From a virus, in the UHGV virus genome UHGV-0203498: a DNA stretch of 32,670 bases; one strand, 5' to 3'. Below, in pieces: positions 2,065 to 31,661 of the stretch (position 1 is the stretch's first letter; each line of letters opens with the position of its first letter). The notes below the pieces were generated by a model. It was given only the letters and a program-made list of their open reading frames with translations, searched no databases and had not been told where the DNA came from. Position numbers and translations under genes: made by a program.

Positions 2065-2126
2065 TATGCAGTCCCCTTTTTTATGCAGTTGCCGATTGAC
2101 ATTGTATCAGCGAATTTAAAACAATC

Positions 2127-2447: not shown

Positions 2448-2450
2448 TAT

Positions 2451-3126: not shown

Positions 3127-3141
3127 TGTAATATTCTCCAA

Positions 3142-3166
3142 TAAAAAAGGGGCCGTGCTGGCCCCA
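3142..3166 (-). terminator. Rho-independent terminator after the major tail gene
   Basis: Minus strand reads GGGGCC-agcac-GGCCCC followed by TTTTTTATT (plus-strand stem 3149-3154 / 3160-3165, A-run 3143-3148). Confidence 0.6.
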
Positions 3167-3195
3167 TATTATCACTCGCTATTTACGCGACCAAA

Positions 3196-3921
3196 TCAGG
3201 CGAGTGCCTCAACCAGGTCTTTACGGTAAATAACCATATCTGACTGCATGGTCAGGGTGGCTTGTACCGTCTCCACGTTGTTTACTTCAGCGGACGGAAT
3301 CTTCTGGAAAGATACCTTCGCCGGGTAAATACGAATTTCACCTTTGCCGCTTGCTGCCGCTGGGTTAGTGAACTGGATCACAGTGGTTTTCTGTGTATCG
3401 TCCAGGTCTTCCAGGATTGGGCGGATCGGGTCTTCTTCGTCGTGGGTGAAGGTGTAAGTCTGGACCAACGGGTTTTTCGTGGTGTTAAGACTGATTGCGG
3501 TGTTCACCTGCAACGGCTGGAAGGTAGTCGTCTGCTGGTCGCCACCCGACACGGCAACGTTAGTGATAAACGGGAAGTCGATAAAGCTCGACACCTTCAC
3601 CACTTCGCCCGGTGTGCCAGAGCTAAAAGCGCCGGTAGGGTATTTGGTCACGTCCGAGGAGTCGAAGCGCGCCAGCGTCACGTCGTTCTCGGATACTTTA
3701 CCCACGATGAATGCGCGGTTAAGCGCTCGGACCCACGGGGTCTTAGTGAACATAACAACGTCGCCAACAACCAGGCCATGCGAAGCCGCACAGGTAATTA
3801 CGCAACCTTGCGTAAGGTCGGAGATCGACGCGGCGGCGTTGGTGGCTGCCGTAACAGCGATACCATTGCCTAATACGGATCCAATCTGGACGCTGGATCC
3901 ATTGGGAAGTTGGTAGCCCAA
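3196..3921 (-). CDS. Major tail protein (putative)
   Basis: 241-aa ORF directly upstream of the chaperone and tape measure genes. TTG start at 3921 is preceded by AGGAGG at 6-nt spacing. Followed by an intrinsic terminator, as expected for an abundantly expressed structural gene. Confidence 0.55.
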   Translation of the reverse strand: MGYQLPNGSSVQIGSVLGNGIAVTAATNAAASISDLTQGCVITCAASHGLVVGDVVMFTKTPWVRALNRAFIVGKVSENDVTLARFDSSDVTKYPTGAFSSGTPGEVVKVSSFIDFPFITNVAVSGGDQQTTTFQPLQVNTAISLNTTKNPLVQTYTFTHDEEDPIRPILEDLDDTQKTTVIQFTNPAAASGKGEIRIYPAKVSFQKIPSAEVNNVETVQATLTMQSDMVIYRKDLVEALA

Positions 3922-4036
3922 AATATCCTCCTAAATCAATAGATTACAGTATTTGCAACCTGAGACATTTCAGGTCTTGACTAATCATACCACCAACGGT
4001 ATTATCCACCAAAATCGTTAACCAACCGGAGCGGCT

Positions 4037-4630
4037 ATGCGTAAAGGCATTCTTTTTGAAGGCATGACATTTAGAGGCGTTACTTTGTTGCGTAAAGGGC
4101 CAGGCCTTAAGTGGTTCTGTTCTTGCCCCATATGCGGCAACGAGACACTTCGCACTAACGGCGCGCTATTGGATTTCATGAGAGGCGACACACTGCGTTG
4201 GGTATGTACTTGTTTTGGTAAGAAATCGCGGCACGGTATGACCGGAACTCCAACAATGCTGTCATGGCAAGGCATGATCCAGCGATGCCACAACCCCAAT
4301 GCAGCTAAATACGAAATATATGGCGGTCGAGGGATTACGGTGTGCGACCGCTGGCGAGTATTCAAGAACTTCCTGGAGGATATGGGGCCGCGTCCCAAGG
4401 GCACTACGTTAGACCGTATTGATCAGAATGGTAATTACGAAAAAAGCAACTGCCGTTGGGCTTCGCAAGCTACGCAAAACGATAATACAAGGCGCATTAT
4501 ACATGTTCGTTTTAATGGCGAGGTGTACAACTTAAAATCGGCTTGCAAAGCCGCGGGGGTTAATTACGACACCGTGCGCAAGAAATGGAAAAAAAGCGGT
4601 GAGATGTTCCACCGCTTCGAGATAGTCTAG
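4037..4630 (+). CDS. HNH-type homing endonuclease-like protein with N-terminal Cys cluster
   Basis: Opposite strand to the flanking tail genes. Cys cluster CSCPICGN...CTC, and a C-terminal region YEIYGGRGITVCDRW...TLDRIDQNGNYEKSNCRWASQATQNDN that resembles phage HNH endonuclease signatures. GGAG 7 nt before the ATG. Confidence 0.5.
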   Translation: MRKGILFEGMTFRGVTLLRKGPGLKWFCSCPICGNETLRTNGALLDFMRGDTLRWVCTCFGKKSRHGMTGTPTMLSWQGMIQRCHNPNAAKYEIYGGRGITVCDRWRVFKNFLEDMGPRPKGTTLDRIDQNGNYEKSNCRWASQATQNDNTRRIIHVRFNGEVYNLKSACKAAGVNYDTVRKKWKKSGEMFHRFEIV

Positions 4631-5049
4631 CCGCAACAGCTATACATGACCGATACCACGATGCGGGCGCGATCAACATCCTCGACCACCGAACTGGTGT
4701 ATGGCGCGTCCTGAAGCTGGAAAGCCGCACCATCGATCTTGACGCCCTGCCATTTGTCAGACGTCGCGATGGCGTCCGCCAGTTCGCTCGCGTACTGTGT
4801 GCCAGTGCCCGCGGGAAACACAACGGCAACCTGGTAAACGCCTGCATAGATCCGGCCTTTCTGCTGAAGTCCAGCAAACTGGGTCGGGGCCGGTAGCAGG
4901 TACGGATCAAGATAGACGCCATTGCCGTTTGCGTGGTCCCCCTTCACGTTCTCCCAGTTAACCTGGATCGGGCGCTGGTTAGTGCTCAGGCTTACCGATA
5001 ACTCTTCTACTACGCTGTTAAGCGCCTTGCGGATTAGAGTATTGCTCAT
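4627..5049 (-). CDS. Structural protein, possibly tail terminator / tail completion
   Basis: 140-aa ORF between the neck-type genes and the major tail gene. Its ATG at 5049 overlaps the upstream stop (TAATG). Assignment is by position only. Confidence 0.4.
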   Translation of the reverse strand: MSNTLIRKALNSVVEELSVSLSTNQRPIQVNWENVKGDHANGNGVYLDPYLLPAPTQFAGLQQKGRIYAGVYQVAVVFPAGTGTQYASELADAIATSDKWQGVKIDGAAFQLQDAPYTSSVVEDVDRARIVVSVMYSCCG

Positions 5050-5642
5050 TATTTCACCTTAGAATTAATTTCTGCCGCTACTACGCGAACAATCCCTGCT
5101 GGCGCTTGTTTACTCCAGCCATATTCCAGTCGCTGGGCATACGGCACATTATTAGTAAACCAGATCGACCCATATTCCCCAGAATCGTAATGCGCCAGCA
5201 CTTCACGCCCCGCGGCTAATGTTGCCGTCCCGGCCTTGTCCACGCGGTCAATAGCGCCGACAGCCGGACGGTCGAACGTAACCTGCCAGTTGCCCCGGAA
5301 GCGTCCGCCGGTGTAATTCTTCGCGGCCCAGCCACGCTGGCGGAACGTGACGATGCCGTTTTTAGTTTTGAATGATACAAGCACACTGGCGTGCTTCTTC
5401 TGCCCGCGCTTCAGTTTACCGCCATTCTTGCGGCGCTGTGCGGCGTTAACCTTGTTTGCGTGCTGGCGAGCCATCGCGTACGCCCTGTTGATCTTCCACC
5501 GGCGGGGATCGCCCACCGGGGAAATCTCAATCAGGCGTCCGAGTATATGCATACCGGTAGCCCGCACCGCAAAGTCGTTGTTCTCCTTCGTCTTCTCTAC
5601 CCATGTTGCAATGGTAGCGGCGAACGAGTAGACCTCAGCCAC
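5049..5642 (-). CDS. Structural protein, possibly neck / head-tail joining
   Basis: 197-aa ORF with a GTG start at 5642 preceded by AAGGGG. Sits in the head-tail joining region. Assignment is by position. Confidence 0.4.
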   Translation of the reverse strand: MAEVYSFAATIATWVEKTKENNDFAVRATGMHILGRLIEISPVGDPRRWKINRAYAMARQHANKVNAAQRRKNGGKLKRGQKKHASVLVSFKTKNGIVTFRQRGWAAKNYTGGRFRGNWQVTFDRPAVGAIDRVDKAGTATLAAGREVLAHYDSGEYGSIWFTNNVPYAQRLEYGWSKQAPAGIVRVVAAEINSKVK

Positions 5643-5643
5643 G

Positions 5644-5997
5644 TTAGCCCCTTAGCTGTAATTGAAACAGCATGGTAGTTCCCGCCGGTTGCAGTGGGTT
5701 TGGGTTGATAACCCGGTAGTCTGTGCTATTCAGGTTAACCAGATCGCCTACCTGCACTTGCTCCGATGCCTGGCATAAGAACTTTACGTCACCGGCAATG
5801 ACACGAGTCCCATCGATCTCGCTGGGCTTGTACTCCTCCCGAAGACCGATGACATCAAACGACGTTGGCGGGACAACCACTTCGTCGCCGTCTACGCGGT
5901 CAACAGACCCTGGACGCGTCACCTTAACGGTCATGCCGTATTTTTTAATCCGCGGATTTACTTTCCGCTTCAAGCCTGCGTAATTAAAGCCCGCCAT
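5644..5997 (-). CDS. Head-tail adaptor-like protein
   Basis: ATG at 5997 preceded by AGGAGA at 9-nt spacing; ~117 aa; gene order is consistent with a head-tail adaptor. Confidence 0.4.
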   Translation of the reverse strand: MAGFNYAGLKRKVNPRIKKYGMTVKVTRPGSVDRVDGDEVVVPPTSFDVIGLREEYKPSEIDGTRVIAGDVKFLCQASEQVQVGDLVNLNSTDYRVINPNPLQPAGTTMLFQLQLRG

Positions 5998-6098
5998 CTT
6001 CTTCACTCTCCTGTGCCGGTGGTACTGGTTCTGGCTCCGGTTCCGGTGGCTGTTTGGTATTTGCGGCGATCATAGCCGCGAGTAATGCCGGATTCATA

Positions 6099-6599
6099 TT
6101 AGCCCCTGTACACGTCAAAGTTACCGGCGGCGTTGCCGTCTGTGTTCACCCAGTAGCCAAGCAGGCCATCCCACCACGGGAAAGACACCCCGCTACCAAT
6201 CGACGAGGCGTCATACTCCATCGTGATCGGTCCTACCGTTTCGCGGATAGTCTCCTTACCATCGCCTACCGGAGAAATATCAACATCGTCAGCCACCAGC
6301 ATTGCCAGCCGGTAAACGGCTTGCTCAACGGCAACAGGGATTGAGGCGAAGTCTACGATCTGCCCCGCGGGGACTACCGCCAAATCTTCAGTAAGCGTGT
6401 TCAGTACCGGCTTACCGTCTGATGGGTAGTTGATGCGGGGCCATGCGTCAATTCCGGTCGGGTCCGCGGGTTCGCCGATCCAGGTGATGCCGTTGAGGAA
6501 GTCATTAACGATGGTAATGTGTCGCGTTGCATCGCCCAGCGTAATTTCAACGCCTCGCGCCGCGGCATAAACAACAAAGGTTTGCGGGTCGCCATACAT
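6099..6599 (-). CDS. Head completion / connector-like structural protein
   Basis: ATG at 6599 preceded by AGGAG; it is the first gene after the capsid-gene terminator. The ORF-track start at 6629 would fall inside the terminator U-run, so 6599 is preferred. Confidence 0.4.
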   Translation of the reverse strand: MYGDPQTFVVYAAARGVEITLGDATRHITIVNDFLNGITWIGEPADPTGIDAWPRINYPSDGKPVLNTLTEDLAVVPAGQIVDFASIPVAVEQAVYRLAMLVADDVDISPVGDGKETIRETVGPITMEYDASSIGSGVSFPWWDGLLGYWVNTDGNAAGNFDVYRG

Positions 6600-6614
6600 T
6601 TTATTTGCTCCTAT

Positions 6615-6640
6615 AAAAAAGGCGGGCATAAGCCCGCCCC
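6615..6640 (-). terminator. Rho-independent terminator after the major capsid gene
   Basis: Minus strand reads GGCGGGC-ttat-GCCCGCC followed by TTTTTTAT (plus-strand stem 6621-6627 / 6632-6638). Confidence 0.65.
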
Positions 6641-6657
6641 TTTGGGATTTGCGCCGA

Positions 6658-7752
6658 TTAGGACGCGGTGGTCGCAGTCAGAGTAACCAGTACGCCAGCC
6701 GTTTCTTTGATGTGTCGGGTCGGCACTGCCTGCGCGGCCTGGGTCTTACGACGGCCTTTAGTGTCGCTATCGCCGCCAACGTCCTGAACGGTTGCCGGTG
6801 CGTTGTCTACCTGGCCCTGGTCCAGTTCCCAGTTTGCGGAAGTGGTAATATCGCTCAGTTTGAACGAGCGCACACCTTCGATCGGGGTGCGGGCGGACGC
6901 CTTCAGACGGTAGCCTTTAACAGCCACGTTGAAGTCGAACTCACCCTGCCACCAACGTTCGATGTTCTCGTTACCGCCTTTTTCCTGCGCCAGCATATCA
7001 AGGCCGTTGGTGGTAACTGCAACCGCGCCAGGGACCAGACCCAGCATGTTACCAGTACCCATCGCATCGGCAGCGGCATCGGAGATAATGAAACGACGGC
7101 CCAGGCCATCACCCATTACCTGCAGATCGCCGATTGCGAATACCTGCTCTGCAGACGGGAGCGCCTGGTATGCAATGAAGTTTGCCCAGGTAACGCCGTC
7201 CATAAACCAGGATTTAATCAAAGACGCCTGATCGCCGAACTTAGAAGCCGCCAGCGGGAAGTCTGCCAGGGTAGGGAAGGTACGACCGCCCACACCATCA
7301 ACGCGCTCCGGTTGGGTGTATTTTGCCGCTGCGTTGCTCTCGATCGCCGCTTTACTTGCGCCGATACCGGCCTTCAGGTAATGCAGCATAATCGCTTGAG
7401 TAGCCTGTGCCGCAATCTCAGCCGCAACGCTGTTAACGTTGGTTTCGATCTTAGCCATCATAGCCTTAGTGATTGCAACCGGACCCACTTTCGCGGAGAG
7501 GTTGACCGAGTTGGTCAGCATACGCGCCAGCACTTTAGCGGTCGCCGGAGTACCGACAGGGGCATATGCGTTACGGTCGGTAACGAGGTTGGCGATCAAG
7601 CCTACGGACATTTTCTCTACAACGTCCTTCAGCACTTCACCTGTACCGAGAACAACAGCGCCGTTAGCGGCAGCGTTGAACACGTTCAGGTTGTCGGGGA
7701 TCATTTGCGTAACCGCGGTAACGAGTTTACGCTGGAACACTGTTAAAGACAT
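6658..7752 (-). CDS. Major capsid protein
   Basis: 364-aa ORF directly downstream of the scaffold gene, AAGGA RBS, followed by a strong intrinsic terminator. Size and composition fit a phage major capsid protein. Confidence 0.7.
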   Translation of the reverse strand: MSLTVFQRKLVTAVTQMIPDNLNVFNAAANGAVVLGTGEVLKDVVEKMSVGLIANLVTDRNAYAPVGTPATAKVLARMLTNSVNLSAKVGPVAITKAMMAKIETNVNSVAAEIAAQATQAIMLHYLKAGIGASKAAIESNAAAKYTQPERVDGVGGRTFPTLADFPLAASKFGDQASLIKSWFMDGVTWANFIAYQALPSAEQVFAIGDLQVMGDGLGRRFIISDAAADAMGTGNMLGLVPGAVAVTTNGLDMLAQEKGGNENIERWWQGEFDFNVAVKGYRLKASARTPIEGVRSFKLSDITTSANWELDQGQVDNAPATVQDVGGDSDTKGRRKTQAAQAVPTRHIKETAGVLVTLTATTAS

Positions 7753-7823
7753 ATCGAAATCCTTTGAGTTGTGAGCATACGCCCAGTGACGTTAATGTTA
7801 CCTTAGATTTACGCGCTCGCAAA

Positions 7824-7845
7824 ATCGCCCGCTTTCGCGGGCGAT
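7824..7845 (-). terminator. Weak hairpin between scaffold and capsid genes (possible partial terminator)
   Basis: 9-bp stem ATCGCCCGC / GCGGGCGAT with loop TTTC, followed on the minus strand by only four U residues. Confidence 0.3.
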
Positions 7846-7849
7846 CTGC

Positions 7850-8554
7850 TTACTCGTCGTCGCCCATTTTAGCGATGATATCACCTGCCTGTTTCGTCAG
7901 GTCCGTGATGCCAAAGCTATGGCCCATCGAGATTTTCGGCTTCGCATCTTCAATAACCTGTGTCGGTTTGCTCGGAGCGCCACCTGCTGGCGTGCCAGCC
8001 AGGACGGATGCAAAATCGGCGTTATTACGGAACTCTTTTTCAAGCTCTTCCATAGTAAGGGCGGACGGTTTGCCATCCTGCAATACCCGCACTTTCAAGC
8101 TGCCGTCTTCGCCGTCTTCCAGCGCGAGGCGGTCCATTACGTGGCGTTGCATGATGCCGGCGTTCTTGCCGAACAGCTTCGACGCCAGGTCTTTGGCAGC
8201 GCTGCCGATGGTTAGATCGTGGATCTGCTTGCGGTAGGCTTCGATTTTACCCGATGTGTCTGCTTCGTATTTTGCAAACTTATCCTTCCAGGATTTATCG
8301 ATCGCTTCAAGGTCGCCATTTTTGCGCGCGGCGGCTTCCTCTTTCTCTTTCGCAAGGCGCTCAGCTTCGGCGCGGCGTTCAGCTTCTGCTTTCTTCTCGC
8401 TCACCAGCTTCGCATTGTTGTCTTTCAGACCCTTAATTTCCGCCTGCACTTCGTCAGCGGTCATAAATGTTGACTTATACCCATCGCCATCGGCAACAAA
8501 AAGCGCCTTCATACCTTCCGGCAACGCGTCGTATTCTGCTTTGGTAAGTTTCAT
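7850..8554 (-). CDS. Scaffolding protein
   Basis: Start MKLTKAEYD at 8554 preceded by AGGGGGA. K/E/A-rich, coiled-coil-like composition (AEAERRAEAERLAKEKEEAAARK). Lies immediately upstream of the capsid gene. Confidence 0.6.
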   Translation of the reverse strand: MKLTKAEYDALPEGMKALFVADGDGYKSTFMTADEVQAEIKGLKDNNAKLVSEKKAEAERRAEAERLAKEKEEAAARKNGDLEAIDKSWKDKFAKYEADTSGKIEAYRKQIHDLTIGSAAKDLASKLFGKNAGIMQRHVMDRLALEDGEDGSLKVRVLQDGKPSALTMEELEKEFRNNADFASVLAGTPAGGAPSKPTQVIEDAKPKISMGHSFGITDLTKQAGDIIAKMGDDE

Positions 8555-8644: not shown

Positions 8645-8674
8645 TTGCAATCTGGGTGTTGGTTGCACTATATT
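8645..8674 (+). promoter_or_regulatory. Putative sigma70-like promoter for the DnaN-like moron (TTGCAA-N18-TATATT), overlapping TTGGTTGCAC motifs
   Basis: TTGCAA at 8645-8650 and TATATT at 8669-8674; TTGGTTGCAC copies at 8659-8668 and 8673-8682; palindrome TTGGT-N5-ACCAA at 8673-8687 just before the RBS. Confidence 0.4.
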
Positions 8675-8703
8675 GGTTGCACACCAACAACGAGGAAATG
8701 AAA

Positions 8704-9216
8704 ATGATTAGAGTTAACTATGCCGACCTTAAGGCTGCTACGATGTGCGCCGCTACTAATGACGTCCGATACTACCTAAATGGTGTATTTTTCGACGAGA
8801 AAGGATTCATCGTGTCGACCGACGGCCACCGTTTGTTCTGCGGGTCCGCGGTTGTTCCAGAAGGTGAAAGTAAAATAGTATCAATTAAAGGCCGCTTACC
8901 TACTAAATTCGAATACTGCAACATCGACGGCACCTCCGCAGCGTTCTTCGATAGTAAAGACGTATTAATAGATACCATACCCTGCGAGATTGTAGACGGA
9001 CGCTTTCCAGACTGGAGAAGAGTTACGTCTTTCGTCAGCAATACCGTGGAGGCTATTGGGTTTAACGGGGCATACCTGGCCGACGCCTGCAAAATTGCTA
9101 AATTGTTCGACCGTAAGTTTGAGGGCTTAAAACTGGAATTCCAGGGTGTAGACAAAGCAACACGCGTGCTGTACAAAGGAGGTGCCTTCTTAGTTATCAT
9201 GCCGATGCGTTTGTAG
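8704..9216 (+). CDS. Truncated DNA polymerase III beta sliding-clamp (DnaN) homolog, 170 aa
   Basis: Translation carries DnaN signatures in order: DVRYYLNGVFF, STDGHRLF, VDGRFPDWRRV, IGFNGAYLADA and C-terminal FLVIMPMRL (E. coli DnaN: DVRYYLNGMLF, ATDGHRLAV, VDGRFPDYRRV, IGFNVSYVLDV, YVVMPMRL). ATG at 8704 is 7 nt after GAGGA. Alone on the plus strand among minus-strand head genes. Confidence 0.75.
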   Translation: MIRVNYADLKAATMCAATNDVRYYLNGVFFDEKGFIVSTDGHRLFCGSAVVPEGESKIVSIKGRLPTKFEYCNIDGTSAAFFDSKDVLIDTIPCEIVDGRFPDWRRVTSFVSNTVEAIGFNGAYLADACKIAKLFDRKFEGLKLEFQGVDKATRVLYKGGAFLVIMPMRL

Positions 9217-9255: not shown

Positions 9256-9465
9256 CTGCAACTCCAGCACTTGCGCCCTTAGCATAGCCCCGCATTCCAT
9301 ATTTTTAACATCAACCAGCAAGTCTTCGTCTGGGTCTGCCGAGGCATTCTCAAAAGTGCAAGGCGGTCTATAGACCGACTCGGTTAGCGGCGTCAATGGC
9401 ACGTTGCTTGATCCGCACGCGCTCAGCATCAAAACTGCAATCAGTACGGTCAGGACGCGTAACAT
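9235..9465 (-). CDS. Putative o-spanin (outer-membrane lipoprotein, Rz1-like)
   Basis: Signal peptide with lipobox LSAC-GSS; small Pro-containing mature region with Cys residues. AAGAGG RBS. Its start lies inside the 3' end of the upstream membrane-protein gene in another frame (overlapped spanin architecture). Confidence 0.5.
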   Translation of the reverse strand: MLRVLTVLIAVLMLSACGSSNVPLTPLTESVYRPPCTFENASADPDEDLLVDVKNMECGAMLRAQVLELQKIIRGL

Positions 9466-9679
9466 ATTTTACAACCTCTTTCGTGATAGTCCGGTATTCC
9501 ACATCGCGGGCCTGTTCGGCCTGCACTGCCCCCTCGACAACCTTAGTTTGCTGCCGTTGGGCTTTCGCTTGCGCCGCTTTCTCCTCTTTCACCACAACGC
9601 CAGCGCGGTAGGAGTCACCCAGCCAGAAGCCAACTGCCAGGCCGATAATTAATCCAATCGCTGCGTATTTAATCACGCC
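9368..9679 (-). CDS. Putative i-spanin (Rz-like; N-terminal transmembrane segment plus charged helical periplasmic region)
   Basis: GTG start at 9679 gives MIKYAAIGLIIGLAVGFWLG (TM segment) followed by KEEKAAQAKAQRQQTKVVEGAVQAEQ. The o-spanin candidate is embedded in and extends beyond its 3' end. Start codon is uncertain (TTG at 9706 is also possible). Confidence 0.45.
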   Translation of the reverse strand, partial: GVIKYAAIGLIIGLAVGFWLGDSYRAGVVVKEEKAAQAKAQRQQTKVVEGAVQAEQARDVEYRTITKEVVKYVTRPDRTDCSFDAERVRIKQRAIDAANRVGL

Positions 9680-10772
9680 ATAACCCCCGGTTTTTAAGCT
9701 GTGCAATAGTCATTAACTCACCCGCATCGGTGAACATTTTCGGCACTTTCACGCCGCGCATAATCTGGTCAGCGCGCTGCACCCCGTATAACTCCTCCAG
9801 AATATGGCGCGGCTGGCGCTGCACCCATGAGAAGAAATCAGTCTGCGCGTCTACATGTTCACTCAGCAACCGACCCGCGTCAGCCTTCAGTGCCGGACGC
9901 TTACCACTGGGCCAGTCTTCCATGCCCTTAACTTTCCACGTCTCCGTCGAACGGCAGCAATAATGCAGCTTACCCGGACCAGCGCCATACTGCGATCCAG
10001 CCACCACTTTTCCGCCGCGCTTTCCTTTGGTCTCGGGAGTGACGTCCACAGGATAAAACAGGCGATCGCGTAGCTGGCACATAGGGGAGGTATGAGTGTC
10101 CAATGTAGCCAACCATTGGCGACCTTCGAGAATATCGTCATTTGCTTTCACCATTAATTCGCGGGCGGTCGCCGCATAGTGGTTGACTGCGGACTTAACC
10201 ACGCTTGAGATGGCCTGCGCACTACGACCGCCGAGCGCGCGCCTTACGTCCGCAATTATTTCCATAGTCGGCTTGCCCTGGATGAATCCAGCGCGCACCT
10301 GATTCCCGATCTGCGTCCTGGTCCACTCAGAGAGTGAGTCAGGCCATTGCATCATCGTATTACCCTGAAACGGGTTTTTCATAGCCGTCGCTGCGATCTG
10401 CGCGCCGGTTACTACGCTCACTACCTCAACAGCTGGAACGGCAACCGCTGGCTGGATCGCTGCCGTTAATGTGTTGGCGAGATAATCAGCCTCCGTGTCG
10501 GCGAACTCCTGAAGGCTTTCTGCCAGCGCCTTAAACTCGGTGCGCAGTTCTGTCTTAACGGTCTTGTCGAGTTGCGTCAACAGTGTGGTAAGCGCCTTGT
10601 TATTCATGGACTTTTTGCCATCAAGCAACTCGGTCAGCTTCCCCAGTAGCGTGGGCCGGAACTTCTCCCACATAGCCAGCACCCTTCGCGCCTGGTCATT
10701 GCTCAGGCGCTGGGTGAAAATGTGACGGCGGATCATGCGATCCGCCAGATGTTGATTAATCGTTCTCGCCAT
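9669..10772 (-). CDS. Head morphogenesis protein (Mu F / SPP1 gp7-like minor head protein)
   Basis: 367-aa ORF immediately downstream of the portal gene and overlapping it by 17 nt. Region WLATLDTHTSPMCQLRDRLFYP resembles the Mu F-family conserved core. Confidence 0.6.
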   Translation of the reverse strand: MARTINQHLADRMIRRHIFTQRLSNDQARRVLAMWEKFRPTLLGKLTELLDGKKSMNNKALTTLLTQLDKTVKTELRTEFKALAESLQEFADTEADYLANTLTAAIQPAVAVPAVEVVSVVTGAQIAATAMKNPFQGNTMMQWPDSLSEWTRTQIGNQVRAGFIQGKPTMEIIADVRRALGGRSAQAISSVVKSAVNHYAATARELMVKANDDILEGRQWLATLDTHTSPMCQLRDRLFYPVDVTPETKGKRGGKVVAGSQYGAGPGKLHYCCRSTETWKVKGMEDWPSGKRPALKADAGRLLSEHVDAQTDFFSWVQRQPRHILEELYGVQRADQIMRGVKVPKMFTDAGELMTIAQLKNRGLWRD

Positions 10773-12276
10773 TGTCCGCTACCTTGTCCGGGTCTTCTTC
10801 GGTAGATTCTACCGCATCAGGTGACATTTGAGGCAATGGATTCTGATTTCGCAATTCGTCTTCCACCTGCTCGACGGTTTGCGAGTCGTCGATGACGCCC
10901 TGCGCCATCATCCACTTGATGAAATCAGCCAGGCGGACCGTACCAGTCTGCACACCCGACATCATCGCTGTCATAAGCTGCGCATCAACCGTGATTTCGG
11001 TGTAGAACTTGTTCAGCGTCACTCGCTGGTCCGCGGTGTCTCCAGTGAATAGCTGGACAATTTGCAGCGCACGGTTGAAAGCCTTCTCAACGTTACCGGC
11101 AATAAGTGACAGGATACTGTTATCAGTCTGCGCGTCGTAGGCCGCTTCTGTTGCCGTCTTAGGTGCAGTCCCCTTCTCAACCAGGGCCGCGCCAAGTTTA
11201 GCCATTTGCAACTCGCGGCGCTCGCACAACGCTACCGACAAGTTGCGCTCCTCGGCCTGGAGCAGTTTAGCGTCCATGTTCTGGCCCAGGATAACGCCCT
11301 TAGTTGCACCGAGAGCAATGCCACCCTTCAGGTTTTTGTCCGCCCATGATTGCGTCAGGCCCGTGGTGACAAGGGTCGGCTGGCCCACAATGTGCGCGAT
11401 CTCGGCAACGTCCGCTTCGGCGTTGTAGTGCTTAATATTGATAGACGCAATATCCGCCAGCGGCGCGGCGTCAGGCGATGCGTTGTTGTCCACCGCGCCA
11501 CACCAGCAAAATGGCAGTTGAGTAAGCGCGTTACCGGCTGCGTCCACCAACGGTACAAGGTCGGTTCGGGTGAAGCCACGCGGCAGGTCCATTTGCACCT
11601 CGGACGTGTCAGCGTTGTAAAACCAGCGGCGGGCGTGTGCCTTGCCGTCAATCATGCGAAGCTCGGTCCAGATGGTTACTTCGTGGTTTGCGAAGTCGTC
11701 CGGGTCTTCGGTGCTGATTTCGTCCGTTTCCTTCAGCACGATTAGCGTATCGACCCCGTGGGTCTGCCGCCAGTTGATGATCTGTTCTGCCGTATACAGG
11801 CGGATAAGCGGGCGGTGCGCAGCCATCTCGGCGGCGGTCTGCGGCACTACGTTACCCAGTTCGTCAAAGTTGGCCTGGTGGTCGTAGTCCACCATAAAGC
11901 CAGCGCGGCCAGATTGCAGCACTTCCGACATAGCACCGCGCAGGAGTTGCGGCAACGGCATACCGCTGCCGTCTACGTCATCAATCAGGTCAGCCATCGC
12001 CCCGGAAAGGTCCAGACTTACCGGTTTTGCAAAGGCAACGCCCAACAGCGCGTTAAGTGTGCGAGCGGTGGCGTTCAGGAATACAGCGCGTTGCTTATAC
12101 GCCTTATACCGCGCCCGTGATTTCGGGTCAGTATTGTCGCCGCTGGCGGGATGTGGCAGATACAAAGGGCCGCACGCCTTCACGGCGCGCTCCCCTGCTA
12201 CACAATCCCGGATCATTTTCCACTCTGGCGCGATGCGCGCATAAAGCGGGTGCTGGTTGTCAACGTTAACGGTCAT
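10756..12276 (-). CDS. Portal protein
   Basis: 506-aa ORF directly downstream of the large terminase gene; AAGGAA RBS; acidic C-terminus. Size and position fit a portal. Confidence 0.65.
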   Translation of the reverse strand: MTVNVDNQHPLYARIAPEWKMIRDCVAGERAVKACGPLYLPHPASGDNTDPKSRARYKAYKQRAVFLNATARTLNALLGVAFAKPVSLDLSGAMADLIDDVDGSGMPLPQLLRGAMSEVLQSGRAGFMVDYDHQANFDELGNVVPQTAAEMAAHRPLIRLYTAEQIINWRQTHGVDTLIVLKETDEISTEDPDDFANHEVTIWTELRMIDGKAHARRWFYNADTSEVQMDLPRGFTRTDLVPLVDAAGNALTQLPFCWCGAVDNNASPDAAPLADIASINIKHYNAEADVAEIAHIVGQPTLVTTGLTQSWADKNLKGGIALGATKGVILGQNMDAKLLQAEERNLSVALCERRELQMAKLGAALVEKGTAPKTATEAAYDAQTDNSILSLIAGNVEKAFNRALQIVQLFTGDTADQRVTLNKFYTEITVDAQLMTAMMSGVQTGTVRLADFIKWMMAQGVIDDSQTVEQVEDELRNQNPLPQMSPDAVESTEEDPDKVADNGEND

Positions 12277-12286
12277 GTTCGTTTCC

Positions 12287-13672
12287 TTAGTAGAAGTCTA
12301 CAGTTGGAACAACGGCGATTGGGCGAATCACAGGGAACAAGTGCGCAATTGGATAGCCCGCTGCATCGTTCATGTGGTCCACTCCGGCGGTTTTATCCGG
12401 CTCGCCTTTCTTCAGGTCGTAAACCTGCTGTTCCAGGCATTTCGCTAGTGTAGGGCATTTATCCAGGTTGACAAAATACTGGCGCACGCCCTTCGAGTTG
12501 CACATCATCGTATTCATCGCGATCAATCGGTCTTTCACAGGCGGGTTAACGCTGTCATATTCCACCTCGAAGCCTGCGTCTTCCAGTTGCGCGATATCTG
12601 ACGAAGAGGCGTTAACCGTCTTACGCGACTTGCCGCTGCTATCCGGGTAAACGACAACCCGACCGGCAGCACAATGATCGGGGTAGCGCTCCTCGATCGC
12701 CTCAATCATAGCCGGGGTGTCAAACAGGTCCACAAATTCATCCACTGCGTGGATTTCGTCGCGGAACTCCTTGTTCTCGGTAGTGCGCTGCCGTCTGACG
12801 TACACAACCGCAGCCATTTTCGTGACGTTAAAGTCCATACCAATAATCAACGTGTCATCCGGTTGCACTTCTTCGGTGCTGGCGTTCTCCTCACGGTTGA
12901 ACATCTTGTATACTGCGCCCGACGTAAGGTTGACAAACAGGCCGTTCAGGTACGCATCAATCAGGTTAGCCGGGTACTGACTGCGCAGCGTGTCGATAAA
13001 GTCTGCCGGTAGGTGGTGGTTATCGGTGGTCTTCGCCCGGATCAAACGCTTCTGGCTATCCTTCTCCACTTCAAAAATCTGGTACATCGCCCGGTAGCCT
13101 TCAGGCGTGGATACGATGACAAACTGGCGCACCAGACCCGCACGCAGACGACCAAGCAATTTGTGATACGCCGCAATTGCGACGTCCTGCTTAGTAGTGT
13201 CGAACTCATCGGCAACAATCCACGCGGCGTTAACACCGATAAGGCGGGTATAGTTCTCCATTGACTCACAAATAACGCGCGTCCATTTGCCTTTCACCAG
13301 CACGCTATAAATCTTGTCCTGCTTGTTGAACTTCCACCGGAAGCCAGCCTCGTCGAAAGCCTTCTCCAGCTCCGGATACATGATTTTAACCAGGAGTGGG
13401 ATAGTCGGCTCGGTCACGATGCCGTCATGACCAGGGTTCAGTGTCAGAAGCTGGATGACCTTACGTGCTGCAACCCATGACTTACCACCACCGAAGCCGG
13501 AACACAGACCGAGGATTTTAGTCTTAGTGTCCCGCAGTAGTTCCACCTGGTGCGGAAGGCAATCAGGCTGATACAGGCGGACGGCCTGTGCAACTCGCGT
13601 TGGGCGTGGCGGTCGGTTGCGCTTTGCGATCGCGCGTTCCAGGGCGCGGTGTTCTGCCGCATAGTTGCGCAT
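12287..13672 (-). CDS. Terminase large subunit
   Basis: Walker A GLCSGFGGGKSW and Walker B-like IVADEFD; 461 aa; its start overlaps the small-subunit stop (TAATG). Confidence 0.85.
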   Translation of the reverse strand: MRNYAAEHRALERAIAKRNRPPRPTRVAQAVRLYQPDCLPHQVELLRDTKTKILGLCSGFGGGKSWVAARKVIQLLTLNPGHDGIVTEPTIPLLVKIMYPELEKAFDEAGFRWKFNKQDKIYSVLVKGKWTRVICESMENYTRLIGVNAAWIVADEFDTTKQDVAIAAYHKLLGRLRAGLVRQFVIVSTPEGYRAMYQIFEVEKDSQKRLIRAKTTDNHHLPADFIDTLRSQYPANLIDAYLNGLFVNLTSGAVYKMFNREENASTEEVQPDDTLIIGMDFNVTKMAAVVYVRRQRTTENKEFRDEIHAVDEFVDLFDTPAMIEAIEERYPDHCAAGRVVVYPDSSGKSRKTVNASSSDIAQLEDAGFEVEYDSVNPPVKDRLIAMNTMMCNSKGVRQYFVNLDKCPTLAKCLEQQVYDLKKGEPDKTAGVDHMNDAAGYPIAHLFPVIRPIAVVPTVDFY

Positions 13673-14223: not shown

Positions 14224-14353
14224 GATATAAGCCCTTTTATGCATATGCGCCGACCATCGGCAACATAGGAGACGGCCCTGCCATCTAAGGGGGATTATAA
14301 CAGGCACAAAAAAGCCCACCAAATCGGCAGGCTGGGAGGCTTACGGGTTGCCG

Positions 14354-15649: not shown

Positions 15650-15685
15650 TTGGTTGCAGTATGGTCTCTATGTTGGTTGCAAGTC
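15650..15685 (+). promoter_or_regulatory. ATTGGTTGCA motif pair
   Basis: GATTGGTTGCAG and TGTTGGTTGCAA lie 24 bp apart, immediately beside the 15691-15716 hairpin. Confidence 0.45.
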
Positions 15686-15893: not shown

Positions 15894-15909
15894 ACTGTGT
15901 CTCCTCGTA

Positions 15910-16920: not shown

Positions 16921-16956
16921 AAAAAAAGTCCCAGTAAGTTTTAACTCACTGGGACT
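16921..16956 (-). terminator. Hairpin plus U7 tract immediately upstream of the holin start codon
   Basis: 8-bp stem GTCCCAGT (16928-16935) / ACTGGGAC (16948-16955) with a 12-nt loop; on the minus strand it is followed by UUUUUUU (16927-16921) and then directly by the ATG at 16920. Confidence 0.45.
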
Positions 16957-17936: not shown

Positions 17937-18202
17937 TTGCTCAGTCTCCAGTGTTTGCCTACCCGCTCGACTGCGGGCTTTCGGCGTAATGTAATACGGA
18001 TCCCCATTGGTTGCAAGGAAGTCCGCACCCTGAAATCGTGCTTTGCTGCGAACTGGTGCAAGTAGCGAGTCTGCGTAAGCGGCTTCACATCATCGCGATA
18101 GCTCCAGTACACAGAATCGCCCTCAGTCGCATTCTTAGCCCATATTCGTATGCAGTGTAGGGGAATGCGCCATGAAAGCTGTTTAGCGCGCCTACGGCTC
18201 AT
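17933..18202 (-). CDS. Hypothetical protein
   Basis: 89-aa basic protein; ATG at 18202 preceded by AAGGGG at 6-nt spacing. Confidence 0.4.
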   Translation of the reverse strand: MSRRRAKQLSWRIPLHCIRIWAKNATEGDSVYWSYRDDVKPLTQTRYLHQFAAKHDFRVRTSLQPMGIRITLRRKPAVERVGKHWRLSK

Positions 18203-18732: not shown

Positions 18733-18776
18733 TGCAACCAATATAACAGGGTGCCAGGGTGACTGCAACCAATATT
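18733..18776 (-). promoter_or_regulatory. ATTGGTTGCA motif pair with overlapping promoter-like hexamers upstream of gene 18711
   Basis: On the minus strand: ATATTGGTTGCAGTCACCCTGGCACCCTGTTATATTGGTTGCACACCAACAGGAGG. Confidence 0.45.
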
Positions 18777-18921
18777 AATCACGCGCATGAAAAAGTTGAT
18801 CGCTATCTGCTGAAACTGCAAACTGCATTTTTCACTCTCCATTCTGCAACTCGCATTGGTTGCCGAGTTCATCGACGACCGCAATTTGCATCATGTTGCC
18901 GTGCGTTATGCAATCCCGGAT

Positions 18922-19132: not shown

Positions 19133-19216
19133 CACGGCAACCAATACGACCAGCTAAAAACACGCAATCTGGCAACCAATGCGCGCAGAAATTAACCAAC
19201 ATGGCAACCAATGCGC
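19133..19216 (-). promoter_or_regulatory. Three ATTGGTTGCC motif copies, including an exact 17-bp direct repeat
   Basis: Plus-strand GGCAACCAATGCGCGCA occurs at 19172-19188 and 19200-19216; a third GGCAACCAAT is at 19133-19142. Located downstream of the primase gene stop. Confidence 0.5.
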
Positions 19217-21498: not shown

Positions 21499-21828
21499 TT
21501 ACTTAGAAGTTTTATTATTGCGTACCCAGGAGCGCACTGTGCTCTGATTAATTCCGGTCAACTCGGCAATCATCGCCCATGACTTACCTTCGTCGCGCAA
21601 ACGGATAACCTGCTTTTTGTATTCTTCCATTTCTTCATTGTGTTTTTGCAGCTTGCTTGCTGCCGTGCCATTGAGCAATTCAAGCCTGGCGCGTAATTCT
21701 TTTTCGACACTGCGCAGGCGCTCGATTTCAAATAACACCGCACCAACGGCGTCGGTATAAGCCCAGGACCGGCTTGTTTCACCGCTAACAGTTTTCGTTA
21801 ACATTTCGATTGCGTCGTTTACATTCAT
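21499..21828 (-). CDS. Putative DNA-binding regulator (coiled-coil N-terminus, C-terminal helix-turn-helix)
   Basis: C-terminal KSWAMIAELTGINQSTVRSWVRNN is HTH-like. First gene of the primase operon, preceded by GAGGGAAG RBS and the palindrome GTTGGT-N5-ACCAAC (21842-21858). Confidence 0.5.
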   Translation of the reverse strand: MNVNDAIEMLTKTVSGETSRSWAYTDAVGAVLFEIERLRSVEKELRARLELLNGTAASKLQKHNEEMEEYKKQVIRLRDEGKSWAMIAELTGINQSTVRSWVRNNKTSK

Positions 21829-21859
21829 TGCTCTTCCCTCAGTTGGTTAATGACCAACG

Positions 21860-21979: not shown

Positions 21980-22033
21980 GCGCTTTTTTTTTGAAATTAG
22001 TTGTTGACACCCCACATGCAACCAATCTAATAT
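21980..22033 (+). promoter_or_regulatory. Putative strong sigma70 promoter with upstream T-tract (UP-like element) for the plus-strand early operon
   Basis: TTGACA at 22004-22009, 18-nt spacer, TAATAT at 22028-22033; T9 tract at 21984-21992; the spacer contains GCAACCAAT. Confidence 0.5.
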
Positions 22034-24923: not shown

Positions 24924-24950
24924 GCAACCAAGTAGATTAGCAACCAAGCC
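24924..24950 (-). promoter_or_regulatory. TTGGTTGC motif pair (variant) upstream of the SSB gene
   Basis: Plus-strand GCAACCAAG at 24926-24934 and again 16 bp later. Confidence 0.35.
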
Positions 24951-28649: not shown

Positions 28650-28924
28650 CCCCAGAAGGCAAGATTCAAAGCTACCTGATGCGTCGGGTGAAAGCGGTGG
28701 GTGGATTCTGCCGCAAAGTGGCCTGGGAGGGGCGCGCAGGTGCGCCCGACCTGATTATCATCATCAACGGCATCATTGTATTCGTCGAAGTGAAGCGCCC
28801 AGGGGGAAAACCGAAGCCGCACCAGGTGCGAGAGCATGCGCGGATGGCCCGCCGCGGTGCTGACGTTCGCGTCATTGACAACATAGCCGACTGTGATTTA
28901 TTGGTTGCTGAATTGGTCGCATAG
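28646..28924 (+). CDS. VRR-NUC domain nuclease
   Basis: GAPDLIII...VFVEVKRPGGKPKPHQ matches the PD-(D/E)xK core of VRR-NUC domains; start coupled to the upstream stop (ATGA). Confidence 0.8.
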   Translation: MTPEGKIQSYLMRRVKAVGGFCRKVAWEGRAGAPDLIIIINGIIVFVEVKRPGGKPKPHQVREHARMARRGADVRVIDNIADCDLLVAELVA

Positions 28925-28953: not shown

Positions 28954-29127
28954 ATGATTGAAGAAAAACGTTGTAGTAACTGCGGCTGTGTTAAGCCGCT
29001 ATCCCAGTTCCACAAATACACCGGAAAGACTGCGCGCAGTCCAGACGGGCATCGGGCCGAGTGCAAATCGTGCCGCAATAAGAAAGAGCGAGAACGGCAG
29101 CGCCGCTACCGCGCAGAACAAGAATAA
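28954..29127 (+). CDS. Small zinc-ribbon protein (57 aa)
   Basis: ATG at 28954 preceded by AGGAGG at 5-nt spacing; CSNCGC...CKSCRN four-Cys arrangement with a basic C-terminus. Preferred over the overlapping TTG-initiated ORF 28958..29173. Confidence 0.45.
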   Translation: MIEEKRCSNCGCVKPLSQFHKYTGKTARSPDGHRAECKSCRNKKERERQRRYRAEQE

Positions 29128-31627: not shown

Positions 31628-31661
31628 ATTGGTTGCATAATCATATTGGTTGCATTATATT
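31628..31661 (+). promoter_or_regulatory. ATTGGTTGCAT motif pair forming a sigma70-like promoter (TTGCAT-N17-TATATT)
   Basis: Motifs at 31628-31638 and 31645-31655; -35 at 31633-31638 and -10 at 31656-31661. Confidence 0.45.

What the first reader, a model, noticed from the sequence alone, without database searches (positions are those of the whole stretch)
8659..8688. Recurrent ATTGGTTGCA motif confined to intergenic regions, often in pairs and in both orientations
TTGGTTGC occurs about 14 times in the window, all in non-coding DNA: 8659 and 8673; 15652 and 15676; 18733 and 18764 (minus); 18854; 19133, 19172 and 19200 (minus); 22016; 24926 pair; 31628 and 31645. An 8-mer is expected roughly once per 32 kb on both strands by chance. 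In several cases the TTGCA(T/G/C) part coincides with a -35-like hexamer that has a TATATT or TTATAT at the right distance. But the motif also occurs in the opposite orientation to the nearest gene and inside promoter spacers. It could therefore be an extended promoter element or an operator for a phage regulator.
Basis: seen in the sequence. Interest (0 to 1): 0.7.

Follow-up and report, generated by a model that had tools for sequence, protein, structure and literature searches.

The report
Conserved promoter-overlapping operator motif in Dhillonviruses
An exact 8-9 base DNA word, (A)TTGGTTGC, is stamped onto the core of nearly every recognisable promoter of this E. coli phage and its relatives, which marks it as the binding site of a still-unidentified phage-wide gene regulator.

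Summary
TTGGTTGC occurs 17 times in the window (1.6 expected), and 15 copies lie in the 11% of the window that is non-coding. The window is a Dhillonvirus (HK578-like coliphage). Complete relatives show the same enrichment. So does Edwardsiella phage eiAU (a different genus), a lineage at about 72% nucleotide identity, and a contig with no nucleotide similarity at all. Related phages that share the replication genes lack the motif.

The conserved unit is (A/G)TTGGTTGC. Copies overlap sigma-70-type core promoters in four registers and both orientations: at -35, inside the spacer (direct or inverted), and abutting the -10.

This fits an operator for a sequence-specific protein, most likely acting by occlusion. 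It does not fit an RNA-polymerase-read promoter element.

- The 380-aa protein is excluded. It is a metallophosphoesterase, absent from motif-bearing eiAU and present in motif-free St162.
- The 109-aa HTH protein is plausible, but it is absent from eiAU.

The best-tracking candidate is gp35 (28954-29127), an uncharacterised 57-aa zinc-finger protein.

The parts
8659..8666 (+). Motif copy. It lies in the spacer of the TTGCAA-18-TATATT promoter of the + strand 'PolIII-beta-like' moron gene (start 8704).
8673..8680 (+). Motif copy abutting and overlapping the -10 (TATATTGGTTGC), so it covers the discriminator and start site. On the other strand a TATAGT hexamer sits between the two copies, facing gp8.
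15650..15657 (+). Motif copy, inverted relative to the - strand genes. It lies immediately downstream of the -10 of the - strand promoter TTGACT-18-CATACT (15687-15658).
15673..15680 (+). Motif copy, inverted, directly after the -35 in the spacer of the same - strand promoter. It follows the gp57 terminator (15718-15695).
18007..18014 (+). The only copy well inside a coding sequence (gp51). It could be a chance copy or a functional one.
18765..18772 (-). Motif copy supplying the -35-like TTGCAG of the gp49 promoter (18768-18740, - strand; 17-bp spacer to TATATT).
18734..18741 (-). Motif copy overlapping the end of that -10 (TATATTGGTTGC). It is followed by ACCAACAGGAGG and the gp49 start codon.
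18856..18863 (+). ATTGGTTGCC copy on the left flank of the iteron block (region B), pointing inward.
19137..19144 (-). ATTGGTTGCC copy on the right flank of the iteron block. Its TTGCCG is the -35-like part of a TTGCCG-18-AATAAT site (19140-19111) that points into the iterons.
19172..19179 (-). GCGCGCATTGGTTGCC copy, second of three direct copies downstream of the helicase-primase stop codon.
19204..19211 (-). GCGCGCATTGGTTGCC copy, third of the three.
22018..22025 (-). Inverted copy (GCAACCAATC) filling the -10-proximal half of the spacer of the rightward early promoter TTGACA-18-TAATAT (22004-22033, + strand). It is invariant across lineages while the rest of the spacer varies.
24924..24931 (-). 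Inverted copy in the spacer, abutting the -10 of the + strand promoter TTGACC-17-TAGATT (24910-24938), upstream of the Enc34-type SSB gene.
24940..24947 (-). Inverted copy immediately downstream of that -10.
28901..28908 (+). Copy in the last codons of gp36. Its TTGCTG is the -35-like part of the gp35 promoter (28905-28933; 17-bp spacer to TATAGT).
28913..28920 (+). Variant copy TTGGTCGC, 12 bp after the previous one, in the spacer of the gp35 promoter. The same variant at the same place is conserved in L151, L153, L176 and L163.
31629..31636 (+). Copy supplying the -35-like TTGCAT of the promoter at 31633-31661 (17-bp spacer to TATATT), between the HNH gene and the next gene.
31646..31653 (+). 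Copy in the spacer of that promoter, ending 2 bp before the -10.
21843..21857 (+). Degenerate palindromic relative of the motif (TTGGTTAATGACCAA). It lies between the -10 of the 109-aa HTH gene's promoter (TTGACA-17-TAGTTT, 21888-21860, - strand) and its start codon. The 72% lineage has an exact copy at the orthologous place.
3187..3194 (-). Second TTGGTCGC variant in non-coding DNA, between the JK_16P homologue and the major tail protein gene. It is a possible weak site.
28954..29127 (+). gp35, a 57-aa four-cysteine zinc-finger protein with a basic C-terminal helix. It is the best-tracking candidate reader of the motif.
21499..21828 (-). 109-aa protein with a variable N-terminus, a 57-residue helix, and an invariant C-terminal sigma-r4/HTH_23-type helix-turn-helix. 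It is the second candidate reader.

Best explanation
(A/G)TTGGTTGC is a cis-regulatory DNA site, an operator. A small sequence-specific DNA-binding protein encoded by the phage binds each asymmetric copy as a single unit.

The copies are built into the core of host sigma-70-type promoters: over the -35, inside the spacer, or across the -10/start-site junction, in either orientation. A bound protein would therefore compete with RNA polymerase. That gives phage-wide, probably negative and self-limiting, control of almost all phage transcription units, including those flanking the replication-origin iterons.

The most likely reader is gp35 (28954-29127), a 57-aa zinc-finger protein whose own promoter carries two copies. 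The 109-aa HTH protein (21499-21828) is the second candidate.

Shown:
- enrichment of the motif
- its restriction to intergenic DNA
- its exactness
- its overlap with promoter-like sites
- its deep conservation
- its phylogenetic co-occurrence with gp35

Inferred:
- that a protein binds the motif
- which protein that is
- that the effect is repression
For: Enrichment and location:
- 17 copies against 1.6 expected, with 15 of 17 in the 11.5% non-coding DNA.
- The same holds genome-wide: AV129 15 of 20, SO-1 16 of 21, and eiAU 17 of 23 copies in 7-10% non-coding DNA.
- Every intergenic region of the window holds either a terminator or a motif-bearing promoter-like site.

A footprint that is not explained by RNA polymerase:
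- The early promoter keeps TTGAC, then 8-9 variable bases with indels, then an invariant GCAACCAATCTA plus TAnnAT, in 18 sequences down to about 72% identity. One lineage fills the variable part with a second copy.

Sharp specificity:
- One-mismatch variants are at chance level in non-coding DNA: 2 of 31, 5 of 37 and 4 of 39.

Geometry:
- 53 of 66 non-coding cores from six lineages overlap -38..+8 of a -10-like hexamer, against 64% of background positions (p = 0.002).
- There are four preferred registers and both orientations. Such variable placement suits steric occlusion.

A lineage-specific reader:
- The base before the core is A in 60 of 82 Dhillon-type copies but G in 15 of 22 eiAU copies.
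- The first core base is T only in the Dhillonviruses, T or A in eiAU, and C in L161.

gp35:
- The long-loop form (FHKY.G.T.RSPDGHRA) is present in every motif-bearing genome, including eiAU, and L161, which shares no nucleotide similarity with the window.
- A short-loop form, or no gp35 at all, is found in all 14 motif-free genomes and loci.
- Motif density is 5.5-20 per 10 kb with long-loop gp35 and 0.4-3.8 without.
- A two-copy promoter sits directly upstream of gp35 in the window, L151, L153, L176 and L161.
- Its zinc module recurs in PHROG families of endonuclease VII and HNH nucleases.
Against: - No binding, footprinting or transcript data exist for any of these phages.
- The gp35 correlation is confounded by phylogeny. 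Motif-bearing and motif-free genomes form two clades, so it amounts to roughly one evolutionary event.
- gp35 has no Pfam, NCBIfam or PDB relative, and its fold matches are generic and non-significant. DNA binding is therefore only plausible, not shown.
- If the protein repressed every promoter that carries the site, including those upstream of the terminase/head and gp8 operons, late expression would need another route.
- The existence of preferred registers could also indicate a stereospecific (activating) contact with RNA polymerase.
- An exact 8-mer with almost no tolerated variants is tighter than most known operator sets.
Confidence: 0.6

Rival explanations
1. The same kind of site, but activating. 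The bound protein marks phage promoters and recruits or re-directs host RNA polymerase, standing in for a weak -35. This would resemble T4 MotA boxes or the P1 Lpa late-operator in the promoter spacer.
For: - Nearly all phage promoter-like sites carry the motif.
- Promoters where the motif itself sits at -35 have poor -35 hexamers (TTGCAT, TTGCAG, TTGCTG) but good -10s.
- The - strand TATAGT facing gp8 has no usable -35.
- Preferred registers exist.
Against: - There are four different registers and both orientations, including copies downstream of the -10 where an activator would block the polymerase.
- Promoters with near-consensus TTGACA/TAATAT also carry the site in their spacer.
- No MotA/AsiA-like or Ogr-like domain was found in any protein scanned.
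Confidence: 0.2
2. The reader is the 109-aa HTH protein (21499-21828), a Cro-like early regulator encoded next to the divergent early promoters.
For: - Its C-terminal 62 residues, including the recognition helix STVRSWVRN, are almost invariant in 24 clusters while the N-terminus is replaced repeatedly.
- It passes the Pfam thresholds for HTH_23 and Sigma70_r4_2.
- The model is confident, with a DNA-binding-type HTH like LuxR/NarL/resolvase.
- It co-occurs with the motif in all Dhillon-type lineages.
- In the 72% lineage its own promoter is followed by an exact copy, and in the window by a degenerate one.
Against: - It is absent from the complete eiAU genome, which has 23 copies, by BLAST and by profile search.
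- eiAU's own resolvase-type HTH protein P858_54 is not detectably homologous (hhalign probability 7.7%).
- In L160 the recognition helix differs at six positions (STIKNWIYR), yet the motif is unchanged and the copy at its own promoter is degenerate.
Confidence: 0.2
3. The motif is read by a conserved host (enterobacterial) DNA-binding protein that these phages exploit.
For: The identical core is kept in phages of E. coli and Edwardsiella whose early regulators differ, while other phage-specific sites (the origin iterons) change between lineages.
Against: - The flank and first-base preferences differ by lineage.
- Related phages of the same host range, and phages sharing the replication module, have none.
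- I know of no E. coli regulator with this site (own knowledge, not tested). PdhR/UxuR-type ATTGGT half-sites need a 3-bp-spaced palindrome, which is not present here.
Confidence: 0.12
4. It is an extended promoter element read directly by RNA polymerase (a -35 TTGCA with an upstream extension).
For: TTGCAN lies 17 bp upstream of TATATT or TATAGT at 18765, 28901 and 31629, and in eiAU at 18147 and 42944. Pooled over lineages, seven copies are in that register.
Against: - Most copies are not in that register, and many are inverted or lie downstream of the -10.
- The final A is not conserved (G10/A8/C6 in the 72% lineage).
- TTGCAT matches TTGACA at only 3 of 6 positions.
- An invariant inverted copy inside a spacer has no known polymerase contact that would explain it.
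Confidence: 0.05
5. The copies are replication-origin sites (iteron-like) for the initiator or helicase-primase.
For: Four copies flank the iteron block downstream of the helicase-primase gene. The same region holds 5-9 copies in L151, L153, L160 and eiAU.
Against: - Region A (2064-2460) duplicates the iteron block without a single copy.
- 13 of 17 copies are elsewhere, at promoters.
- The true iterons change with lineage (TGTCCCGC, GGTGCCA-type, GGGGGAGA) while this motif does not.
Confidence: 0.05

Closest known systems
Phage P1 C1 repressor operators (own knowledge)
   Same: Asymmetric, non-palindromic sites read one at a time. More than a dozen copies are dispersed over the genome, each overlapping the promoter of a different operon, in either orientation.
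   Different: P1 operators are 17 bp long and tolerate mismatches. P1 is temperate, and C1 is an immunity repressor.
Mycobacteriophage L5 gp71 'stoperators' (own knowledge)
   Same: About 20-30 copies of a short asymmetric site confined to short intergenic regions, bound by a monomeric HTH repressor.
   Different: Stoperators share one orientation relative to transcription and act on elongation. Here about 11 copies are co-oriented with the local genes and about 6 are opposed, and the sites overlap promoter cores rather than lying within transcripts. The lifestyle is also different.
T4 MotA box, and the P1 Lpa late-operator in the promoter spacer (own knowledge)
   Same: A phage-specific short word built into host-type promoters in place of, or next to, the -35, marking a class of phage promoters.
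   Different: Those sites have one fixed position and orientation relative to the -10. This motif has four registers and two orientations. No MotA, AsiA or Lpa homologue was found among the proteins scanned.
NarL/GerE-type heptamer sites (own knowledge; structural neighbours of the 109-aa HTH)
   Same: Short asymmetric units used singly or in pairs, with variable spacing and orientation.
   Different: These belong to host two-component regulators and have degenerate heptamers. The similarity of the phage HTH to these domains is only local (34-44 residues, E > 0.5).

Membership tests
Sigma-70 promoter -35 / extended -35 element | Fixed position 16-18 bp upstream of a -10 hexamer, on the same strand | tested here: not met
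   Only 3 of 17 window copies and 7 of 66 pooled non-coding copies are in that register. Others lie in the spacer, abut the -10, or are inverted.
Sigma-70 promoter -35 / extended -35 element | Resemblance to TTGACA is the part that is conserved | tested here: not met
   Position +9 (the A of TTGCA) is G10/A8/C6 in the 72% lineage, whereas TTGG is invariant.
Dispersed asymmetric phage operators (P1 C1 type) | Non-palindromic site, many dispersed copies, each overlapping a promoter | tested here: met
   There is no dyad symmetry in the consensus. Copies fall in 8 separate intergenic regions and overlap promoter-like sites.
Dispersed asymmetric phage operators (P1 C1 type) | Bound by a phage-encoded repressor | not testable with these tools
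   There are two candidates (gp35 and the 109-aa HTH), supported only by profiling.
Mycobacteriophage stoperators | One orientation relative to the direction of transcription | tested here: not met
   About 11 copies are co-oriented and about 6 opposed to the flanking genes.
Replication-origin iterons | Clustered direct repeats confined to the origin, co-varying with the initiator | tested here: not met
   13 of 17 copies are elsewhere. The duplicate iteron block (region A) has none. The motif is unchanged where the iterons changed.
T4 MotA-box / sigma appropriation | Single fixed box centred near -30, plus MotA/AsiA-type proteins | tested here: not met
   The registers are variable. No such domains were found in the 40 or so proteins scanned. 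Not every ORF was scanned.
P2 Ogr / P4 Delta zinc-finger activators (considered for gp35) | Membership of the Ogr/Delta zinc-finger family | tested here: not met
   gp35 has no Pfam family at E <= 0.05 and no NCBIfam hit at E <= 1.
Known RNA families | Match to an Rfam covariance model | tested here: not met
   There are no matches at gathering threshold anywhere in the window. The motif also occurs in both orientations relative to transcription.

The most novel reading that the evidence does not exclude
gp35 is the founding member of an unrecognised family of very small (about 57 aa) zinc-finger transcription regulators of virulent phages. It reads an exact TGGTTGC core as a monomer and gates essentially every promoter of the genome from positions inside the core promoter. 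The protein and its site have been co-inherited across genera whose other regulators and origin iterons have all been replaced.
Probability: 0.3. Interest if true: 0.7.

Novelty: new variant of a known kind. Interest (0 to 1): 0.55.

Why it matters
Dhillonviruses are among the most frequently isolated coliphages. They belong to standard collections such as BASEL and are used in phage-therapy and defence-system studies, yet nothing is known about how they time their gene expression.

This motif gives a ready-made map of their promoters and a single word whose reader should control the whole programme. Because the site is an exact 8-mer present about 20 times per genome, it is easy to mutate, to use as bait, or to use for engineering (synthetic control of phage genes, or a decoy array that titrates the regulator).

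The work also corrects an annotation that has spread through GenBank: the 380-aa 'transcriptional regulator' is a metallophosphoesterase unrelated to the motif.

Tried and rejected
- Scanning IMG/VR for two copies within 40 bp was swamped by unrelated tandem repeats and said nothing about taxonomic spread.
- A greedy ORF mask for coding versus non-coding was too crude and was replaced by the deposited annotations.
- The 380-aa 'transcriptional regulator' as reader was rejected by its phylogenetic profile and domain content.
- eiAU P858_54 as a distant homologue of the 109-aa HTH was not supported: BLASTP found nothing, and hhalign gave 7.7% probability.
- eiAU P858_33 as a profile hit matched only a coiled-coil segment and has no HTH.
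- gp27/DUF6378, shared by AV129 and eiAU, is also present in a motif-free locus (L145) and is not DNA-binding by annotation.
- Dam and the HNH protein are the only other non-virion proteins exclusive to the motif-bearing genomes. No rationale connects either with a 9-bp asymmetric site, so they were not pursued.
- Sigma-54, DnaA-box, NtrC, CytR and PdhR/UxuR-type sites were compared from memory. None fits the word or its spacing.
- An RNA-level role (the UUGGU...ACCAA hairpin at 8673 and 18734) was rejected. It occurs at only 2 of 17 copies, the copies are in both orientations, and the predicted start site falls inside the motif.
- Conservation contrast among the close Dhillonviruses was weak because the flanks are also about 90% identical. 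The deep comparisons were needed.
- Structure and fold searches for both candidate proteins gave only generic matches.
- A literature search found no description of the motif and no transcript map for the genus.

Full report
**What the window is.** The window is about 90% identical over its length to Escherichia phages of the genus Dhillonvirus (HK578-like siphoviruses), and runs in reverse orientation relative to phage AV129. I transferred AV129's annotation by tblastn, which gives this map:
- 1-8554: virion genes on the minus strand.
- 8704-9216: a plus-strand 'PolIII-beta-like' moron.
- 9371-15496: head and terminase genes, plus a 380-aa protein, on the minus strand.
- 15768-18711: lysis genes and small genes on the minus strand.
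- 19227-21488: helicase-primase, preceded by a 109-aa HTH protein (21499-21828), both on the minus strand.
- From 22230: a long plus-strand replication operon.

**The observation.** TTGGTTGC occurs 17 times against 1.56 expected (maximum 4 in 100 shuffles). With the transferred annotation, 15 of 17 copies lie in the 11.5% of the window that is non-coding (p = 8.5e-13). Shuffling the non-coding DNA alone gives 0.12 copies expected against 15 observed. Among unbiased 8-mer counts it is the most frequent non-coding word. The consensus has no conserved flanks beyond an A before the core (13 of 17) and a weaker A after it (10 of 17).

**The element is sharply defined.** One-mismatch variants are not enriched in non-coding DNA: 2 of 31 in the window, 5 of 37 in AV129 and 4 of 39 in SO-1, all at chance level. 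The only recurrent variant is TTGGTCGC. It occurs at 28913, where it is conserved at the same promoter position in L151, L153, L176 and L163, and at 3187.

**Conservation far beyond the genus.** AV129 has 15 of 20 copies, SO-1 16 of 21, and Edwardsiella phage eiAU (genus Eiauvirus, about 66% nucleotide identity in its best gene) 17 of 23, in the 7-10% of each genome that is non-coding.

All 15 close Dhillonvirus loci from IMG/VR carry the motif. Nine distant loci that share the helicase-primase at 37-45% identity do not, and neither does Kagunavirus St162. Three contigs of a lineage at about 72% nucleotide identity (L151, L153, L155) and a fourth (L160) have 10-13 copies each at orthologous promoters. 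In those same lineages the origin iterons have been replaced: TGTCCCGC here, GGTGCCA-type there, GGGGGAGA in St162.

The invariant core is TGGTTGC. The first base of the 8-mer is T only in the Dhillonviruses, T or A in eiAU, and C in L161. The preceding base is A in 60 of 82 Dhillon-type copies but G in 15 of 22 eiAU copies. The base after the core is not conserved in the 72% lineage.

**Where the copies sit.** Each intergenic region of the window contains either a terminator or a motif-bearing promoter-like site. There are two layouts.

In the first layout the motif has the orientation of the gene. Its TTGC(A/T)N stands 17 bp upstream of TATATT or TATAGT, and a second copy lies in the spacer or overlaps the end of the -10. 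Examples:
- 18768-18740
- 28905-28933
- 31633-31661
- eiAU 18147/18115 and 42944/42932

In the second layout a good TTGACN -35 and a -10 bracket one or two inverted copies. Examples:
- 22004-22033
- 24910-24938
- 15687-15658
- several promoters in L151

Pooled over six lineages, 53 of 66 non-coding cores overlap -38..+8 of a -10-like hexamer, against 64% of background intergenic positions (p = 0.002). Thirty-four cores fall in four registers:
- abutting the -10 downstream: 12
- in the spacer, direct: 6
- in the spacer, inverted: 9
- at -35: 7

**The footprint that decides between 'promoter element' and 'operator'.** I aligned the early divergent region from 18 sequences. The rightward promoter keeps TTGAC, then 8-9 bases that vary freely and include an indel, then an invariant GCAACCAATCTA running into TAnnAT. 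In L151 and L155 the variable part is itself a second copy. No known polymerase contact explains an invariant inverted 9-mer in a spacer, but a bound protein does. Together with the non-conserved final A, and the 3-of-6 match of TTGCAT to TTGACA, this rules out the 'extended -35' reading as the general explanation.

**Not an origin element.** Four ATTGGTTGCC copies converge on the TGTCCCGC iteron block downstream of the helicase-primase, and the same region is motif-rich in every lineage. However, region A (2064-2460) is a near-duplicate of the iteron block and has no copy. In addition, 13 of 17 copies are elsewhere. The copies near the origin therefore look like promoters or regulatory sites flanking it. 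One of them is a TTGCCG-18-AATAAT site that points into the iterons.

The 380-aa protein (14354-15496) is a metallophosphoesterase / 'DNA repair exonuclease' (PHROG 704, E = 1.8e-161) with, at best, a sub-threshold LuxR-type HTH. It is absent from eiAU and 70% identical in motif-free St162. It is excluded.

The 109-aa protein passes the Pfam thresholds for HTH_23 and Sigma70_r4_2. Its C-terminal 62 residues are almost invariant in 24 clusters, while the N-terminal 45 are replaced repeatedly. A confident model (pLDDT 89) shows a 57-residue helix ending in a three-helix HTH like those of LuxR/NarL regulators and recombinases. In the 72% lineage its own promoter is followed by an exact copy, and in the window by the degenerate TTGGTTAATGACCAA.

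Against it:
- It has no homologue in the complete eiAU genome.
- eiAU's own resolvase-type HTH protein P858_54, although it sits behind four or five copies, is not detectably related.
- The one distant full-length relative found among 1.8 billion representatives (P0027, in contig L160) has a recognition helix changed at six positions, while the motif is unchanged.

**Who reads it: a third candidate.** gp35 (28954-29127) is a 57-aa protein with two CxxC pairs and a basic C-terminal helix. The model has pLDDT 80 and shows a zinc-ribbon hairpin plus helix. It matches PHROG 5558 and the zinc modules of endonuclease VII and HNH families. It has no Pfam, NCBIfam or PDB relative.

Its 'long-loop' form (FHKY.G.T.RSPDGHRA) is present at 59-75% identity in every motif-bearing lineage: L176, L151, L153, L160, eiAU, L162 and L161. 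L161 has no nucleotide similarity to the window and a different gene order, yet it has five TGGTTGC cores in the two intergenic regions flanking the gene. These include a 12-bp-spaced pair in front of a -10, as in the window.

A 'short-loop' form with a three-residue deletion occurs in motif-free St162 and L179-L182, where the gene has no promoter of its own. The gene is undetectable in nine other motif-free loci. Overall, loci with long-loop gp35 have 5.5-20 cores per 10 kb, and all others have 0.4-3.8. This is the best profile of any protein tested, but the two states coincide with two clades, so it is suggestive rather than proof.

**Mechanism.** I commit to this: a small phage-encoded protein binds each asymmetric copy singly. 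Because the copies lie within the polymerase footprint in several registers and both orientations, binding occludes the promoter.

Variable geometry favours occlusion over a stereospecific activating contact. The existence of preferred registers, the weak -35s of the first layout, and the presence of the site at late-operon promoters keep an activating or dual role alive. The lineage-specific flank preferences argue for a phage-encoded rather than a host reader.

**Comparison with known systems and novelty.** The closest analogues are the dispersed asymmetric operators of P1 C1 and the L5 'stoperators' (own knowledge). This case differs in several ways: the phage is virulent, the core is a shorter and essentially exact word, there is no orientation rule, the sites are placed inside core promoters, and there is no related repressor. 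It fails the defining tests for a -35 element, origin iterons, MotA boxes, Ogr-type activators and Rfam RNAs (see the membership table).

Full-text searches found no description of the motif and no transcript map for these phages.

Noticed in passing
window 18926-19095 (region B) and 2064-2460 (region A): There are two near-duplicate blocks of TGTCCCGC iterons (18 copies in the window, 14 of them non-coding), each with a GC-rich hairpin (GACGAGGGGGGT...ACCCCCCGTC). One lies downstream of the helicase-primase and one inside the tail module between the chaperone and tape-measure genes. The SO-1 record annotates them as repeat regions A and B. The iteron word is lineage-specific: GGTGCCA-type in L151/L160, and GGGGGAGA in St162. 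They are candidate replication origins, and the second copy in the tail module is unexplained. AV129 annotates a 53-aa ORF over part of each block, which is probably spurious.
   Followed up: partly
window regions A and B, e.g. 2067-2073, 2083-2089, 2130-2136, 2376-2382, 19094-19100, 19106-19112: A third repeated word, TTATGCA (TGCATAA), has 13 copies, 11 of them non-coding. It is often part of (A)ATAG(G/T)TATGCA and is interleaved with the iterons. Similar words occur in the origin-like regions of St162, L153 and eiAU, so unlike the iterons it is conserved across lineages.
   Followed up: no
window about 22040-22195: A block of about 150 bp in the 5' leader of the rightward early operon is present in most Dhillonviruses but cleanly absent from L126, L129, L131, L137 and the 72% lineage. 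Part of it (22066-22117) matches unannotated intergenic DNA of T1-like phages (swan01, tunus, JLBYU38) and Klebsiella phages at 86-92% identity. It has no Rfam match and folds no better than shuffled sequence (z = 0.07). It appears to be a mobile intergenic element of unknown nature.
   Followed up: partly
window 21901-21995 (+): A short candidate transcription unit. The best sigma-70-like match of the scanned region (TTGAAA-17-AATAAT with an upstream TG) is followed by about 60 nt containing CATTGTCTC direct repeats (2-3 copies depending on lineage), then a GC hairpin with a T9 run. Its position is conserved in all lineages. It could be a small RNA, or the repeats could be the operator of another regulator.
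   Followed up: no
window 14354-15496 (-): The gene annotated 'transcriptional regulator' in several GenBank records is a calcineurin-like metallophosphoesterase / SbcD-like exonuclease (PHROG 704, E = 1.8e-161). The LuxR-type HTH hit is below threshold (16.7 bits against a cut-off of 23.5).
   Followed up: yes
window 21499-21828 (-) and homologues P0001-P0027: The 109-aa HTH protein has an almost invariant C-terminal 62 residues, but at least four unrelated N-terminal 30-45-residue segments among otherwise close phages. This is a striking case of domain swapping that may reflect a variable partner or target.
   Followed up: partly
window 3922-4629: This 708-bp stretch is absent from AV129 and lies between the major tail protein gene and the gp13 homologue. 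It carries a plus-strand 197-aa ORF (4037-4630) opposed to the tail genes, with only a sub-threshold DUF3797 hit. It is probably an inserted moron.
   Followed up: partly
window 26021-28312 (+): The DNA polymerase I gene is uninterrupted here (763 aa). AV129 and SO-1 carry an insertion of about 265 residues (annotated in SO-1 as a group I intron with its own ORF), so this phage is an intron-less allele.
   Followed up: no
window 8682-8695, 18720-18733, 21843-21857; St162 (L125) about 13020: The 5' leaders of several genes share CACCAACA(A/G)GAGG immediately before the start codon. With a preceding motif copy this forms TTGGT-N5-ACCAA. It is also present in motif-free St162, so it is a separate, conserved translation-initiation context.
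   Followed up: no
L124 (eiAU) 42150-43015 (-): eiAU carries a three-gene minus-strand cassette inside its tail module, at the position of Dhillonvirus region A. It includes a 117-aa protein with a Hin-like GRPRA arm plus an HTH, and it is driven by tandem motif-pair promoters. This is a second, unrelated small HTH protein associated with the motif.
   Followed up: partly
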